A DNA stretch of 32,000 bases from Candidatus Saccharimonadota bacterium. Its GTDB lineage: Bacteria; Patescibacteriota; Gracilibacteria; Absconditabacterales; Absconditicoccaceae. Below are positions 1,784 through 19,370 of this stretch, in pieces. The stretch covers positions 750,001 through 782,000 of the forward strand of contig JAUIDC010000001.1 in NCBI GenBank assembly GCA_030429145.1, in the 5' to 3' direction. How positions within the stretch are numbered: the first letter of the stretch is position 1; each line of letters opens with the position of its first letter. The position numbers and the translations under genes are program-made. The notes under the pieces are model-generated. The model did not search any database. It had not been told where the DNA came from and saw only the letters and a program-made list of their open reading frames with translations.

Positions 1784-2800
1784 TCACTGGTAGAGTGCTA
1801 CGATTTGGCCTGAAGCTACCGCTCTTTGCGGCTGAGAAAATTCGATTTTCATGAGATGATTGTCAGTTGCACTGATGGTGCAATCTTGGTCAGGCTGACG
1901 GTAGCGTATCTTTGCTGCTGCCTGCAAGGGGAGAGGAGGAACTGGGCTGATCCGATGCCAGTCGGTGGCTATGAGGCTATTACGGTAGAGCTCTGCCTCG
2001 CTTTCAGTTCCGACAACCAATAGATTCTTCTCGATATCCTTTCTTATGACAAAAAGAGGCTCGCTATATGCCACTCAAAGCCCTTGTCTCTGTCAGATAG
2101 TGTAGCCTCGGGCTCATTGATGCGTGCCAAGCTTCTCTCCCTGTAGATTGACGATATTTCACTCTTTTGGCTCAATTTGAGACTGTAAGAACTCACGCAT
2201 CTCCACTTTTCCGATAAAACAGATTCCTTGGCTATCTTTGCGGTCGGCATTTGGTAGTCATGCTTCTTTTGCGATCTTTCTGATCTCTGATTTGAGCATT
2301 CAGCCCACAGGAAACATGCTGTGTGAAAGCTGCTCTTGGTTGAGACGAGCAAGAAAATAACTCTGATCTTTCTCAGGATCTATTCATTTCAATAAGTGAA
2401 AAACACCATTCTTTTCTTTTATGCGTGCATAATGTCCCGTTGCGATAGCATCAAATCCCAATGCTAAAGCTTCATCTAAAAACAATCTAAACTTTATATC
2501 ACTATTACATAATACATCTGGGTTGGGCGTCAAACCACTTTTATATCCATCAACAATGTATTGGACGATACGCTCCTCATATTCTTTTTGAAAATCAAAA
2601 GTATATAGCTTGATTCCTAGATGTTCTGCTACTTTCTTTGCCTCTTCCAGGTCGGCTTTTGTGGTACATTCAGGGCTATCGGTGATATAATTTATCATAA
2701 AACCTGCAGTGACCTCATAGCCTTGCTTCATTAAAAGGTAGGCAGCTACAGCACTATCTACTCATCCCGATAAACCAACTAATATTTTTTTCTTTTCCAT
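1784..2800 (-). CDS. mnmA: tRNA-specific 2-thiouridylase MnmA
   Basis: Track ORFs 2384..2731 and 1784..2074 share a frame with the ATG at 2800. The joined translation gives LSG[G][10 protein letters not shown] (PP-loop), [17 protein letters not shown] and YTI[G]QRQGL[G]. There are 8 in-frame TGA, all at Gly-type positions. Track ORF 2044..2352 is out of frame. Confidence 0.9.
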
Positions 2801-3136
2801 AAAATGTTATTCTTTAGGATAGAATAATGAAAAAATAACTATACGTAAGTAACAATCTGATACAAGCTCTATATGAGAAAACGTTGCCTTTACCAAATGT
2901 AACTAATTGTTTTTGTTGTATTCAATTGTGGAGACGGACTGAAATTTTGAGTTTTGGGATACCCTCTGTATATCCATTTACTTTCCCACAATCAAGAGAA
3001 ATCTCTTCGTAATCACTACTATGATTTGACATAAAAGAGTGGATATGTGTGATTGGTGATGAAAAAAGCCTCGTTTTGGGGAGGAAAATGTCCTGAAAGA
3101 GTAGTTTGTATCCTAGTTTATATGATATGTGATTTT

Positions 3137-3165
3137 TTGCCTTTTTTGAGGTTTTTGAGTATAAT
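3137..3165 (+). promoter_or_regulatory. Sigma70-like promoter, TTGCCT-N17-TATAAT, upstream of the pilB-like gene
   Basis: TTGCCT at 3137..3142, a 17-nt spacer, then TATAAT at 3160..3165. The ATG at 3209 lies about 44 nt downstream. Confidence 0.45.
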
Positions 3166-3208
3166 AAGTATGTAAGATTTTTTAAGCAAGATTCGTACGA
3201 AAATCGCA

Positions 3209-4786
3209 ATGGCAACACAGCTAACGAAGAAGATATTGGAAAAGGAGGACGTGAAGGCGCTTCAGCCGAATTTTACGTATGTGAAATATCTGCCACAAGA
3301 GATCTCTGCTAAGGCGGAAACAGTGGTATTTGACGGTGAAAAGAATCGTCTCCAGCTTCTCACGACCAATGCCAATACTCTTGCAGTGAAGTCTATTGTT
3401 GATCAACTTGCTACCAAAGGTTATAAGACAGAACTCTACTATACCGATCCAGATGCATTTCAGATCGCTATCGGTTGGTATGATACCATCGTAAAACAGG
3501 AAAAAACAGAAGCGGAAGAGAGACAACTACAGCAGAATGCTCTCGGTCAGTCTGCAGAAGAGATGCTTCAAAAGCTCTATGCGGAGAAACAGCAGATGGA
3601 CGATGGTAAGTTTCTTGGAGAGATCATCAGATTGACCTATCAGGCTGGTGCATCGGACCTTCATTTTCAGCCACAGCAAGACAAAGTGCTTATGCGTATG
3701 AGAAAGGACGGTATTATGAAAAATGTGCTTGAGTTTACACAGGCTGAGTTTAAGAAGTATGCACTGAAGGTGAAATTTATGTCTGGTGCAAAGATGAATA
3801 TCGACTATCTGCCGCAGGATGGACGTTTTGACTTCCCGGTAGATATCAACGGTAAGAAAAAAGAGATCGATGTGCGTGTGAGCTTTATGCCAGGACTCAG
3901 AGGAGAGGGGATAGTGATGAGATTTTTGGATGCAGATCAGGGTATTATGACCTTTACTGACCTTGGATTTGAGTCGCAGACTATTTCATTGATCAAAGAA
4001 CATTTGACGAAAAACTACGGTATGATCCTTATATCGGGTCCTACTGGATCGGGTAAAACGACGACTCTCTACTCGATGCTTCAGTATATGAATGATTCAT
4101 CAAAGAAGATCATCACTCTTGAGCAACCGGTAGAATTTGAAATTGAGGGGATAGAGCAGTCACAGATTAACCCGTTGAAGGGTTATACGTATGAGGAGGG
4201 ATTGAAGTCTGTACTCCGTCATGACCCAGATATTATCTTCGTGTGAGAAATCCGTACGAAAGAAACTGCTGAGATCGCTCTCAATGCGGCTATGACTGGT
4301 CACTTGGTACTTTCTACTATCCATACGAACTCTGCTGTCGAGGCTATCTCAAGACTCATGAATCTTGGTATCAAGCCATATCAACTTGCACCTGCTCTCA
4401 ATCTTGTGATCGGACAGAGACTCGTGAGAAAACTTCATACCTGTGCGACAAAGCGTGAAGCGACCTTGCCAGAGCAGCAAGAGATGAAAGATGTCGTGCA
4501 GACGATCAATCAGATAGATCCTACGCGCAAAGTATCATTTGATGGTAATGTGTGGGCAGCTGTCGGTTGTGATACGGACAGTCATGATGGATATCAGTGA
4601 CGTTTGGCCGTTACTGAAGCTCTTGATGTGAACAATGATATCAAAGAAATGATATTGAACAATAAGAATACCCTCGATATCTACGCTGAACTTCGTAGTA
4701 AAGGCTTCCTAACTATGAAAGAGGATGCATACATGAAGATGCTTGAGGGGAAGACTACCTTAGAAGAAATTAGGAGAGTGTTGTAA
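3209..4786 (+). CDS. pilB: Type IV pilus / type II secretion assembly ATPase (PilB/GspE family)
   Basis: Three same-frame track ORFs are joined across TGA at 4244..4246 (DPDIIFV[G]EIR) and 4598..4600 (GYQ[G]RLAVTE). The protein has Walker [22 protein letters not shown] and an N-terminal T2SSE_N-like region. Length 525 aa. Confidence 0.9.
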
Positions 4787-17380: not shown

Positions 17381-17410
17381 AAAAAAAGCCACCTTTTCAG
17401 GCAGCTTACT
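17381..17410 (-). terminator. Intrinsic terminator after rpoD
   Basis: The minus strand reads aagctgcc-tgaaaa-ggtggctt (two G-T pairs) followed by T7. Confidence 0.55.
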
Positions 17411-17411
17411 G

Positions 17412-19340
17412 TTAGTCATCTAGATAGCTGAAGTCATCATCGTCTTCAAAGAATCCACTTGCTTCCTCATCATCTGATATTTTTGGAAGCTTGATCTTTC
17501 ACTTTTTGAGATTCTTGTTGAAGCGTTCCATCTTTTCGATGTCGTCTTCGATACCAAGGATCTTTTGGAGTCCGATATGTTCCTTAAGTTTCTGAAGAAC
17601 CTTCTGTTCGATCTGTCTCACACGCTCACGTGTTACTTGGAACTCCTCTCCAACCTGTTCAAGCGTGTATTTTGGACCGTCGATACCATATCTCATCTTA
17701 ATGATTTTCGCTTCACGTTCATCAAGCATGCTAAGGATATAGTTGAGGTTTGTTCTGATAGTATCCTTTTCAGCGGCCTGATCAGGTCTCATAGTACTTT
17801 TGTCTTCAATCAAATCACCAAGAGAGTCCTTGCCGTCATCACCTACTTCACTGTCGAGAGAGACATTTCCAAAGATCACCTCTTCAAGTTTCTTAATCTT
17901 CTTGATGTTAAAGTTCAACTTTGTACCGATTTCTTTCGATGTTGGTTCACGTCCAAGTTTCTGGAAGAGTTCTTGGTAGGCTTTGTTATAGCTATTGATC
18001 TCATCGATTAGATGGACAGGGATTCTCACATGTTTCGTCATATCAGCAATAGCCTTTGTGACCGACTGCTTGATCCACCATGTTGCGTAGGTAGAAAACT
18101 TGAAGTCTTTATCTGGGTCGAATTTTTCAATTGCTTTGATCAGTCCGACATTACCCTCTTGAATGAGGTCAGAAAAGCTCAGTCTAGAACCAAAGAATCT
18201 TTTAGCTATGGAAATAACCAATCTTAGATTTGATTCAATAAGCTTCTTCTTTGCGTTTTCATCACCACGTCTGACACGGATAGCGATAGCCTTCTCCTCT
18301 TCAGCGCTAAGCAGTGGGATTTTTGAAATATCGTTGAAGTAGAGTTTGATGTGGTCGTGATACTGTTTATCGTTGATCGTATATTTTTTTTCGTAGAGCT
18401 CTACTTTACCAAGTTTGCTTCCACCCTGTAGCATCTGCTTGTTTTCTGCTTCAAAGACCTCTTCGATAGTAACGATCTTGATGCTCATCTTTTCAGCGAG
18501 CTCATAGAACTTTTCTACCATCTTAATCTTTGCGTCTAGGTCGTCTACTTCTGTCAATATCTCCTCCTCGGTGATATGACCTGACTGCATACCTTTTTTC
18601 AAAAGATTTTGTAGCTCTGGAGTCATATCATTGATATCTTCAGCAAGCTTGTCCCAGATCTGCTGTCTATTTACGGCTTTTCTTACATGATCTTTCTTAG
18701 CGGTGCTCTTGGTATTCTTATCATCTTTGGCGTCCTTTTGCTCATTGCCATTTTTTGCTGACTGAGCAGCTCATAGTCTTGTTAGGGTCTTGAGGTCGTG
18801 CTTTCTTTTCTTTGCAGCTTCAGCTTTTAGCCTCTTCTCCTCCATAAATGAAAGCTCTTTCTTTGCTGCCTTTTTTACAGTCGTTTTTCCACCAGCTTTT
18901 TTGACAACTTTCGATACTTTCTTCGCCACTTTCTTGACGACAGGTTTCTTTTCCGTTGCTTTTTTCGTCTTCACAGCTGCTTTTTTGACACTCTTTTTTG
19001 CCGTAGCTTTTGCTGGTTTGCTCGCTGTTTTTTTCGCTCCTGCAGATCTCGCAGATTTACTGGGCGTCTTCGTCTTCTTCTTCGCTGCGGTTGTTTTCTT
19101 TGCTGTCACTTTCTTTGTAGCTTTTTTTGCAGCTGTTTTCTTGGCAGTACTCTTTTTTGCTGGAGTTTTTTTAGCGACGGTTTTCTTTGTCGTCACTTTC
19201 TTTACAGCCTTTTTTGCACTCGACTTCTTCGGTGCTGGCTTTGTAACTGTCTTCTTCTTTGCAGGCGCTGCTACTTTTTTTGTCGTCTTTTTCTTGTCAG
19301 TAGCTTTCTTTACAGCCTTTTTTGCTTTCTTTGCTGGCAT
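17412..19340 (-). CDS. rpoD: RNA polymerase sigma-70 factor RpoD with a fused Lys/Ala-rich histone-H1-like N-terminal domain and a short acidic C-terminal tail
   Basis: Track ORFs 18771..19340 (189 aa of AKK/KKA repeats) and 17499..18626 (sigma regions 1.2-4, e.g. RLVISIAKRF, YATWWIKQ, TLEQVGEEFQVTRERVRQIE) share a frame. TGA 18771..18773 and 48 open codons connect them. TGA 17499..17501 is read through to TAA 17412..17414. An in-frame TAG lies 3 codons upstream of ATG 19340. Total 642 aa. Confidence 0.8.
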
Positions 19341-19370
19341 GCCAACCTATGTCATAATGAGCTAAAATAT

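What the first reader, a model, noticed from the sequence alone, without database searches (positions are those of the whole stretch)
17412..19340. Primary sigma factor fused in frame to a 189-aa Lys/Ala-rich histone-H1-like domain
In standard code the locus looks like two genes, a KKA/AKK-repeat basic protein (18771..19340) and rpoD (17499..18626). They share one frame and the only separator is TGA 18771..18773, which is Gly here. The next 48 codons are open (..TLTRL[G]AAQSAKNGNEQKDAKDDKNTKST..DINDMTPELQ). A TAG lies 3 codons upstream of ATG 19340.

The lysine-rich ORF therefore cannot terminate before rpoD and must read into it. A second read-through (TGA 17499..17501) adds an acidic tail, ..SDDEEASGFFEDDDDFSYLDD.

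A nucleoid-protein-like polycationic domain would replace or precede the normally acidic region 1.1. That is unusual and could tether the housekeeping sigma to DNA. RpoD could still also be made separately from internal ATG 18626.
Basis: partly seen in the sequence, partly recalled or inferred. Interest (0 to 1): 0.7.

Follow-up and report, generated by a model that had tools for sequence, protein, structure and literature searches.

The report
Housekeeping sigma factor with lysine-rich tail
In this bacterium, which reads TGA as glycine, the main transcription-initiation factor (RpoD) is one 642-residue protein with a very basic, disordered, histone-H1-like tail at its front end; the fusion is real and shared by close relatives, but similar lysine-rich tails are already known on main sigma factors of other bacteria.

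Summary
On the minus strand, 19340..17412 is one open frame if TGA is a sense codon. The window uses code 25: 9 of 10 in-frame TGAs in its MnmA gene align to Gly in solved MnmA structures.

The junction TGA (18771..18773) sits at a Gly conserved in nine related loci. Five relatives encode it as GGT or GGA. Two relatives have no TGA anywhere in the fused gene, so they encode one protein under any genetic code.

The product has five parts:
- a disordered Lys/Ala/Thr tail (aa 1-189, 71 Lys, net +68);
- a conserved long helix that contains the junction Gly;
- a canonical acidic region 1.1, so the tail precedes it and does not replace it;
- regions 1.2 to 4;
- a conserved acidic, aromatic C-terminal tail.

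Met239 (ATG 18626) is Leu in the 13 other extended proteins aligned, so a separate RpoD has no comparative support.

The tail defines one Absconditabacteria (SR1) subclade; most SR1 RpoDs lack it. The architecture is not new. Lysine repeats are published for Streptomyces HrdB and Bordetella pertussis RpoD, and mycobacterial sigma-A has a basic disordered N-terminal half. I also found polycationic tails before region 1.1 in unrelated RpoDs.

Function, most likely non-specific DNA tethering, is inferred. Verdict: new member of a known kind, modest interest.

The parts
17412..19340 (-). Complete rpoD coding sequence under code 25: 642 codons plus TAA stop at 17412..17414
   Evidence: Homologous full-length single ORFs are called in relatives.
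18861..19340 (-). Polycationic Lys/Ala/Thr/Val low-complexity tail, aa 1-160, with 12 [STAVPG]x[AV]KK pentapeptides. The basic character continues to aa 189.
   Evidence: aa 1-160 have 64 K and net charge +63; pentapeptide count. The equivalent segment of P0002 is predicted disordered, pLDDT below 50 with no secondary structure. No Pfam hit even at E<=10. Nonsynonymous change is below synonymous change (pN 0.20 vs pS 0.56 against L002).
18666..18860 (-). Conserved linker, aa 161-225, predicted to be a long alpha-helix; it contains the junction Gly190
   Evidence: The motif AAxxKK.HDLKTLT(K/R)LGAAQ is conserved in clade A and (R)TxKEQAxxIKKLG(Q/E)AK in clade B. The equivalent helix is residues 117-168 of P0002, pLDDT 65-84 over about residues 111-150 and lower beyond.
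18771..18773 (-). In-frame TGA, codon 190 = Gly, the apparent separator of the two 'genes'
   Evidence: The aligned codon is GGT/GGA in L001, L002, L021, L022 and L023, and TGA in L003, L004 and L005.
18624..18626 (-). ATG for Met239, the proposed internal rpoD start; not conserved
   Evidence: This column is Leu in the 13 other extended proteins aligned and Phe in one unextended SR1 RpoD. No Shine-Dalgarno-like sequence lies upstream, though other genes in the window lack one too.
18426..18665 (-). Sigma region 1.1, about aa 226-305; aa 226-300 are acidic, net -11
   Evidence: PF03979 E=0.0023, 18.3 bits, below the gathering score. A profile of SR1 RpoDs aligns to region 1.1 of SigA chains 8x6f_E, 7l7b_F and 7ckq_F. 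The fold is predicted with pLDDT about 80. Charge.
18258..18356 (-). Sigma-70 region 1.2 (aa 329-361)
   Evidence: PF00140 E=3.2e-12.
18045..18242 (-). Sigma-70 region 2 (aa 367-432)
   Evidence: PF04542 E=5.6e-22.
17778..18002 (-). Sigma-70 region 3 (aa 447-521)
   Evidence: PF04539 E=6e-15.
17580..17735 (-). Sigma-70 region 4 (aa 536-587)
   Evidence: PF04545 E=4.9e-17.
17415..17540 (-). C-terminal extension after region 4 (aa 601-642): a basic patch, then an acidic/aromatic tail ending ...EDDDDFSYLDD. It contains TGA codon 614 (17499..17501).
   Evidence: The ending EDDDDFSYLDD is identical in L001, L002, L021, L022 and P0001-P0005. Acidic/aromatic tails occur in all SR1 RpoDs inspected. 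L022 and L023 encode the tail without TGA.
17386..17407 (-). Intrinsic-terminator-like hairpin plus T-run directly after the TAA stop
   Evidence: No such site lies between the Lys-rich part and the sigma part on this strand.

Best explanation
One gene, not two, encodes a 642-residue group-1 (housekeeping) sigma factor in a bacterium that reads TGA as Gly (code 25, Absconditabacteria/SR1 lineage).

Shown here:
- The protein starts at ATG 19340 and reads through two Gly-TGA codons.
- Its order is: a disordered polycationic tail of about 190 residues (38% Lys, net +68, [S/T]xAKK-type repeats as in histone H1 tails), a conserved long helix, a canonical acidic region 1.1, regions 1.2-4, and a short acidic/aromatic C-terminal tail.

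Inferred:
- The tail acts as a non-specific electrostatic nucleic-acid binder. It would keep free sigma and holoenzyme on the nucleoid and add DNA contacts near the channel that region 1.1 enters and leaves during open-complex formation.
- Promoter recognition itself would remain conventional.

It is a lineage-specific N-terminal extension of the kind already seen on other primary sigma factors.
For: Genetic code:
- 9 of 10 TGAs in the window's MnmA align to Gly.
- TGAs in related RpoD genes fall on Gly positions conserved in RpoD.

Single ORF:
- The frame is continuous.
- The junction Gly is conserved in 9 loci: GGT/GGA in 5 and TGA in 4.
- L022 and L023 have no TGA in the whole fused gene.
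- Gene callers produced single proteins of 549-627 aa for relatives.

The tail is translated:
- The frame is open in only 3 of 20000 shuffles.
- Nonsynonymous change is below synonymous change (pN < pS) in the tail and linker.
- The gene starts 31 nt after the pheT stop.
- The order pheT, rpoD, ligA is kept in L001, L005, L022 and L023, with one extra small ORF before ligA in L002 and L021.
- No internal start is conserved.

Architecture:
- Pfam finds regions 1.2, 2, 3 and 4.
- Region 1.1 aligns to solved SigA chains.
- AlphaFold2 of the close homologue P0002 gives a disordered tail, a long helix, a folded region 1.1 and a disordered C-tail.

Function by analogy:
- Lysine repeats are enriched in DNA-binding proteins, including HrdB and B. 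pertussis RpoD (PMC5714199).
Against: - There is no protein-level or transcript-level evidence for this organism.
- Synonymous sites are saturated between the available relatives, so the selection test is weak.
- The tail has no significant match to any H1/Hc family model, so 'H1-like' rests on composition and repeat motif only.
- Most SR1 RpoDs lack the tail, so it is dispensable for sigma function in the wider lineage.
- Nothing here distinguishes DNA binding from RNA binding, from interaction with the protein's own acidic parts, or from a neutral low-complexity expansion.
- An additional product from an internal start cannot be excluded by sequence alone.
Confidence: 0.72

Rival explanations
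1. There are two separate genes: a stand-alone H1-like nucleoid protein ending at TGA 18771, and RpoD starting at ATG 18626.
For: This is how the locus reads in the standard code. A public annotation of relative L001 (protein P0006, 447 aa) is cut at TGA codons in the same way.
Against: - TGA is Gly in this genome.
- The junction codon is GGT/GGA in five relatives, and two relatives have no TGA in the gene.
- The 48 codons between TGA and ATG 18626 are conserved as protein.
- Met239 is not conserved.
- Unextended SR1 RpoDs start about 13 residues upstream of the position aligned to Met239, so a product from ATG 18626 would lack conserved N-terminal residues.
- No terminator lies between the two parts.
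Confidence: 0.03
2. There is one gene, but the true start is internal (for example Met166 or a GTG), and the Lys-rich stretch is an untranslated A-rich leader that happens to be open.
For: NCBI gene calls for several other lysine-tailed RpoDs omit the tail: 360 vs 454 aa for a Lloydbacteria protein and 404 vs 537 aa for a Clostridia MAG. A/G-rich sequence has few stop codons. No clear ribosome-binding site marks ATG 19340.
Against: - The frame is open in only 3 of 20000 composition-matched shuffles, while the other two frames have 8 and 5 stops.
- An open, Lys/Ala/Pro-rich frame is kept in all six complete relatives across two subclades, starting M-A/V-x-K-K shortly after the pheT stop.
- pN is below pS.
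- Internal Met and GTG positions are not conserved.
- Other genes in the window also lack ribosome-binding sites.
Confidence: 0.08
3. There is one fused protein, but the tail's main partner is not chromosomal DNA. It might neutralise or dock onto the protein's own acidic region 1.1 and acidic C-tail (autoinhibition), bind RNA or polyphosphate, or drive condensate formation.
For: Strong charge segregation within one chain: +68 in aa 1-189, -11 in aa 226-300 (region 1.1), -5 in the C-tail. Mycobacterial sigma-A shows a similar basic-then-acidic split (PMC5511352).
Against: The acidic C-tail is present in all SR1 RpoDs inspected, whether or not they carry the basic tail, so the two did not co-evolve. 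The +68 charge far exceeds the acidic charge available in the same chain. Nothing here tests these alternatives directly.
Confidence: 0.15

Closest known systems
Lysine-repeat tracts in primary sigma factors: Streptomyces HrdB and Bordetella pertussis RpoD (Strzalka et al. 2017, PMC5714199)
   Same: These are housekeeping sigma-70-family proteins carrying Lys/Ala-rich repeats. The paper interprets the repeats as DNA-interaction elements.
   Different: That paper suggests the repeats may be characteristic of GC-rich genomes. This window is about 40% GC and uses code 25. Here the tract is at the extreme N-terminus, is unusually long and charged (net +68), and is followed by a conserved helix and a canonical region 1.1. 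The repeat position in HrdB and B. pertussis RpoD was not examined here.
Mycobacterial sigma-A N-terminal extension (Hubin et al. 2017, PMC5511352)
   Same: It is a long, intrinsically disordered N-terminal extension of a group-1 sigma. Its first half is positively charged and is followed by an acidic part and one conserved helix before region 1.2.
   Different: Actinobacterial sigma-A has no E. coli-type region 1.1, whereas the SR1 protein keeps one. There is no sequence homology between the extensions, and the charge density here is far higher.
Polycationic N-terminal tails on other RpoDs found here
   Same: All have a Lys/Arg-rich tail directly before region 1.1. Candidate-phyla examples are L012 (Uhrbacteria) and L015 (Harrisonbacteria), plus L013 (a MAG labelled Gammaproteobacteria), with tails of about 70-95 aa. 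Cluster representatives are P0191 (Lloydbacteria, +30 over 89 aa), P0150 (+33 over 85), P0210 (+27 over 83), P0220 (+34 over 152) and P0264 (Bacilli/Clostridia MAG, +63 over 154).
   Different: Those use the standard code or an unknown code. Low complexity makes homology of the tails undecidable. L012, L013 and L015 were found through the pattern MPAKKAKK and so are a biased sample. The linker motif around the junction Gly was seen only in the SR1 subclade proteins aligned here.
H1-like domains fused to RNA-polymerase-associated proteins: Streptomyces DdbA (H1-like N-terminal domain plus DksA-like domain, PMC3643593) and myxobacterial CarD-type proteins
   Same: A lysine-rich [S/T][A/T]AKK-type repeat domain is fused to a protein that acts on, or could act on, RNA polymerase. 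DdbA binds and condenses DNA in vitro through that domain.
   Different: The partner domain there is a secondary-channel-type (DksA-like) or beta-subunit binder, not sigma. Those proteins are accessory; this one is the essential housekeeping sigma.
Chlamydial Hc1/Hc2 and eukaryotic histone H1 C-terminal domain (Pfam PF07382 HC2)
   Same: They share Lys/Ala-rich, disordered, polycationic composition. One relative (P0012) has a precomputed PF07382 hit.
   Different: The window's tail gives no Pfam hit at E<=10. It has no globular winged-helix H1 domain. The resemblance is compositional, not demonstrable homology.

Membership tests
Group 1 (primary) sigma-70 family, RpoD/SigA | Regions 1.2, 2, 3 and 4 present in order | tested here: met
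   PF00140, PF04542, PF04539 and PF04545 are all above their gathering scores. Best PDB matches are SigA/RpoD chains, E about 1e-87 for the family profile.
Group 1 (primary) sigma-70 family, RpoD/SigA | Region 1.1 N-terminal to region 1.2 | tested here: met
   PF03979 gives only 18.3 bits against a gathering score of 22.5. However, the SR1 profile aligns through region 1.1 of SigA chains 8x6f_E, 7l7b_F and 7ckq_F. The segment is acidic (aa 226-300, net -11) and is predicted folded.
Group 1 (primary) sigma-70 family, RpoD/SigA | It is the housekeeping sigma of the genome, that is, the sole group-1 paralogue and essential | not testable with these tools
   Only a 32-kb window is available. Orthology is suggested by 64-88% identity to proteins annotated RpoD/SigA in SR1 genomes and by the conserved pheT-rpoD-ligA neighbourhood.
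Genetic code 25 (SR1/Gracilibacteria, TGA = Gly) | In-frame TGA at conserved Gly positions of conserved proteins | tested here: met
   9 of 10 TGAs in MnmA align to Gly. TGAs in related RpoD genes fall on Gly positions conserved in RpoD. Many clearly real genes in the window carry in-frame TGAs.
Genetic code 25 (SR1/Gracilibacteria, TGA = Gly) | tRNA-Gly with anticodon UCA present and release factor 2 absent | not testable with these tools
   There is no tRNA gene in the window, and the whole genome is not available.
Histone H1 / chlamydial Hc1-Hc2 family | Significant match to a family model (for example PF07382 HC2, or the linker-histone globular domain) | tested here: not met
   No Pfam family matched aa 1-226 even at E<=10. 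Only relative P0012 has a precomputed PF07382 hit.
Histone H1 / chlamydial Hc1-Hc2 family | Lys/Ala-rich repeats of the [S/T]xAKK or SPKK type, with predicted disorder | tested here: met
   12 [STAVPG]x[AV]KK pentapeptides and 38% Lys. The equivalent segment of P0002 is predicted disordered. This is a compositional resemblance only.
Lysine-repeat DNA-binding tracts (sense of PMC5714199) | The tract confers or strengthens DNA binding | not testable with these tools
   This needs a biochemical assay such as a gel shift with and without aa 1-189.

The most novel reading that the evidence does not exclude
In this reduced-genome SR1 subclade the housekeeping sigma might double as a histone-H1-like nucleoid protein. 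The +68 tail would coat or condense DNA and hold a nucleoid-bound reservoir of sigma and holoenzyme. The conserved helix, acidic region 1.1 and acidic/aromatic C-tail would gate this binding through intramolecular charge interactions that are released on core binding or open-complex formation. This would be a direct structural coupling of chromatin state and transcription initiation within one polypeptide.
Probability: 0.12. Interest if true: 0.6.

Novelty: new member of a known kind. Interest (0 to 1): 0.3.

Why it matters
Practical point: in code-25 genomes that are annotated with the standard code, this essential gene is split or truncated. The public call for the complete genome OZ246420.1 (protein P0006) is cut at both TGAs. 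Gene callers also often drop lysine-rich N-termini. As a result, the true architecture of many primary sigma factors is under-recorded.

Biological point: the case adds a low-GC, candidate-phyla lineage to the list of bacteria whose housekeeping sigma carries a polycationic disordered tail. One paper suggested that lysine repeats may be characteristic of GC-rich genomes (PMC5714199); this case does not fit that. It also offers a natural comparison for asking what such tails do, because tailed and untailed RpoDs are otherwise about 70% identical within one order.

It does not open a new class of mechanism.

Tried and rejected
- Sequencing error or frameshift at the junction: rejected. The frame is continuous and the junction peptide is conserved in nine loci.
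- TGA = Trp (code 4): rejected. TGA aligns to Gly in 9 of 10 MnmA positions.
- A stand-alone H1-like gene next to rpoD as the source of the fusion: none is present upstream of rpoD in the unextended SR1 loci L006, L007, L009 and L010.
- Recent tandem DNA amplification as the origin of the tail: only three short, weak repeats, scores 33-41.
- A genome-wide habit of lysine-rich tails: within the window, this gene is the only real ORF with such a segment.
- Internal promoter or terminator between the two parts: none on the coding strand. The scan is consensus-based and weak evidence.
- Ribosome-binding-site argument for or against start codons: uninformative, because the window's genes generally lack Shine-Dalgarno motifs.
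- dN/dS: synonymous sites are saturated against every available relative, so only pN < pS can be stated.
The close homologue P0002 was modelled instead.
- Literature searches for a description of this feature in SR1 or candidate-phyla sigma factors found nothing. The library is limited to open-access papers.
- Not done: a database search with the linker or tail alone to look for stand-alone copies of the module. It was judged unlikely to change the verdict.

Full report
**1. Observation**

On the minus strand an ATG at 19340 opens a frame that runs to TAA at 17412..17414 if TGA is read as a sense codon.
- The frame has two in-frame TGAs: codon 190 (18771..18773) and codon 614 (17499..17501).
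- A TAG lies three codons upstream of the ATG.
- The upstream gene, pheT, ends 31 nt before the ATG.
- A terminator-like hairpin with a T-run follows the TAA directly, at 17407..17386. Nothing similar separates the two halves of the gene.

Residues 1-189 contain 71 Lys, 36 Ala and 25 Thr, with net charge +68 and pI 11.2. They include twelve [STAVPG]x[AV]KK pentapeptides.

The 225 codons upstream of the sigma homology stay free of TAA/TAG in only 3 of 20000 shuffles of the same bases. The other two frames of that stretch contain 8 and 5 such stops.

**2. Genetic code**

Many clearly real genes in the window carry in-frame TGAs. In MnmA, 9 of 10 TGAs align to Gly in solved MnmA structures. In related RpoD genes, TGAs fall on Gly positions conserved in RpoD. 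No tRNA gene lies in the window. The window therefore comes from a code-25 organism. The nearest named homologues are from Absconditabacteria/SR1.

**3. Is the fusion real?**

A protein search returned relatives of 549-627 aa called as single proteins, with a Lys/Ala/Pro-rich N-terminus joined to RpoD.

DNA of eight related loci was fetched. The Gly at the junction, in the motif ...TLT(K/R)L-G-AAQ... or ...IKKL-G-(Q/E)AK..., is conserved in all of them.
- It is encoded by GGT or GGA in L001, L002, L021, L022 and L023.
- It is encoded by TGA in the window, L003, L004 and L005.
- L022 and L023 have no TGA anywhere in the fused gene, so there the fusion is a single ORF under any code.

The gene order pheT, rpoD, ligA is kept in L001, L005, L022 and L023. 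L002 and L021 have one extra small ORF before ligA.

Nonsynonymous differences are fewer than synonymous ones in the tail and in the linker. Synonymous sites are saturated, so this is only weak support.

Met239, the proposed internal start, is Leu in the 13 other extended proteins aligned and Phe in one unextended SR1 RpoD. No other internal Met or GTG is conserved.

Unextended SR1 RpoDs begin about 13 residues upstream of the position aligned to Met239. A product from ATG 18626 would therefore lack conserved residues.

**4. Architecture**

Pfam finds regions 1.2, 2, 3 and 4 above threshold.

The segment before region 1.2 gives a sub-threshold hit to region 1.1. A profile of SR1 RpoDs aligns to SigA chains 8x6f_E, 7l7b_F and 7ckq_F starting in region 1.1. 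Residues 226-300 are acidic, net -11. The tail therefore precedes region 1.1 and does not replace it.

AlphaFold2 of the close homologue P0002 predicts the following:
- residues 1-113 disordered;
- one long helix at 117-168 that contains the junction Gly;
- a folded region 1.1 at 175-260, pLDDT about 80;
- the sigma domains;
- a disordered C-tail.

The window protein itself could not be submitted.

The C-terminal extension after region 4 is a basic patch followed by an acidic/aromatic tail. It ends ...EDDDDFSYLDD in the window and in its closest relatives. It is present in all SR1 RpoDs inspected, with or without the basic tail.

**5. Distribution**

Within SR1 the basic tail marks two sister groups (alignment A1). 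Most SR1 RpoDs are about 405-440 aa and lack it. No stand-alone lysine-rich gene lies upstream of rpoD in the four unextended loci examined.

Outside SR1:
- RpoDs from an Uhrbacteria MAG (L012), a Harrisonbacteria MAG (L015) and a MAG labelled Gammaproteobacteria (L013) carry lysine-rich tails of 70-95 aa before region 1.1. These were found through the pattern MPAKKAKK, so the sample is biased.
- A search of 1.84 billion cluster representatives used only the sigma part of the protein, which is neutral with respect to the tail.
- Among the representatives retrieved from it, several unrelated RpoDs have polycationic extensions. P0264 has +63 over 154 aa, P0220 +34 over 152, P0150 +33 over 85, P0191 +30 over 89 and P0210 +27 over 83.
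- Named cluster members are from Lloydbacteria and from Bacilli/Clostridia MAGs. NCBI gene calls for them omit the tail.

**6. What is known**

Strzalka et al. 2017 (PMC5714199) report lysine repeats in Streptomyces HrdB and Bordetella pertussis RpoD. They link the repeats to DNA interaction and suggest they may be characteristic of GC-rich genomes.

Hubin et al. 2017 (PMC5511352) describe the mycobacterial sigma-A N-terminal extension as intrinsically disordered. Its first half is basic and its second half acidic. They also note that group-1 N-terminal extensions vary widely between clades.

Streptomyces DdbA joins an H1-like [S/T][A/T]AKK repeat domain to a DksA-like domain that could modulate RNA polymerase. 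It binds and condenses DNA in vitro (PMC3643593).

Searches for a description of this feature in SR1 or candidate-phyla sigma factors found nothing.

**7. Mechanism**

Shown: a single polypeptide made of a disordered polycation, a conserved helix, an acidic region 1.1, regions 1.2-4 and an acidic tail.

Inferred from the analogues above:
- The tail binds nucleic acid non-specifically.
- It keeps sigma and holoenzyme on the nucleoid.
- It may add contacts near the DNA channel that region 1.1 occupies and then leaves.

Alternatives that remain open are intramolecular charge gating, RNA binding, condensate formation, and a largely neutral low-complexity expansion. The two-gene reading is rejected. 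The internal-start-only reading is unlikely.

**8. Verdict**

Two side claims fail: the tail does not replace region 1.1, and a separate RpoD from ATG 18626 has no comparative support.

The architecture is a new lineage-specific example of a known kind. It stands out for its charge density, for occurring in a low-GC code-25 genome, and for being mis-annotated when the wrong code is used. Interest is modest.

Noticed in passing
window 17415-17540 (-); L001, L002, L005-L010, L021-L023: All SR1 RpoDs inspected, with or without the basic N-tail, carry an extension after region 4.2: a basic patch, then an acidic tail with aromatic residues (for example EDDDDFSYLDD, DDDDFEFEEVDF). The candidate-phyla RpoDs L012, L013 and L015 end soon after region 4 and lack it. 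This is unusual for a group-1 sigma, and its function is unknown. From my own knowledge, it is reminiscent of acidic, DNA-mimicking or partner-binding tips such as the SSB C-terminus.
   Followed up: partly
L001 (OZ246420.1, complete 1.1-Mb chromosome), locus 2755-4587: The public protein for this gene (P0006, 447 aa) starts after one in-frame TGA and stops at the next. The genome was evidently annotated with the standard code, under the organism label 'Candidatus Peribacteria'. Under code 25 the gene encodes 610 aa including the lysine-rich tail.
   Followed up: yes
P0122 / P0290 (Patescibacteria group bacterium, MCR5412392.1): This is the second-best hit in the representative search, 60% identical to the window's sigma part. 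It has a Lys/Glu/Thr-rich N-terminal stretch followed by what looks like two tandem copies of region 1.1.
   Followed up: no
P0191 cluster (Lloydbacteria OGZ11819.1, 360 vs 454 aa); P0264 cluster (Clostridia MDD4066745.1, 404 vs 537 aa): NCBI gene calls for other lysine-tailed RpoDs start downstream of the tail, while other pipelines include it. Polycationic N-termini of sigma factors are probably under-annotated as a rule.
   Followed up: partly
P0017 (509 aa SR1 RpoD): This protein has an N-terminal extension of about 85 aa that is not Lys/Ala-rich. It aligns only loosely with the linker of the tailed clade, and may be an intermediate or degenerate form of the extension.
   Followed up: no
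window 19341-19370 and gene starts across the window: The genes examined (mnmA, groEL, rpoD, ligA, pheT, trpS) lack recognisable Shine-Dalgarno motifs upstream of their starts. The consensus scan found no sigma-70-like promoter on the minus strand between 17000 and 19800, so rpoD may be co-transcribed with pheT.
   Followed up: partly
L022 4824-7091: In this relative, ligA downstream of rpoD is called as two genes (484 + 267 aa). This could be a real split, a frameshift or an assembly error.
   Followed up: no
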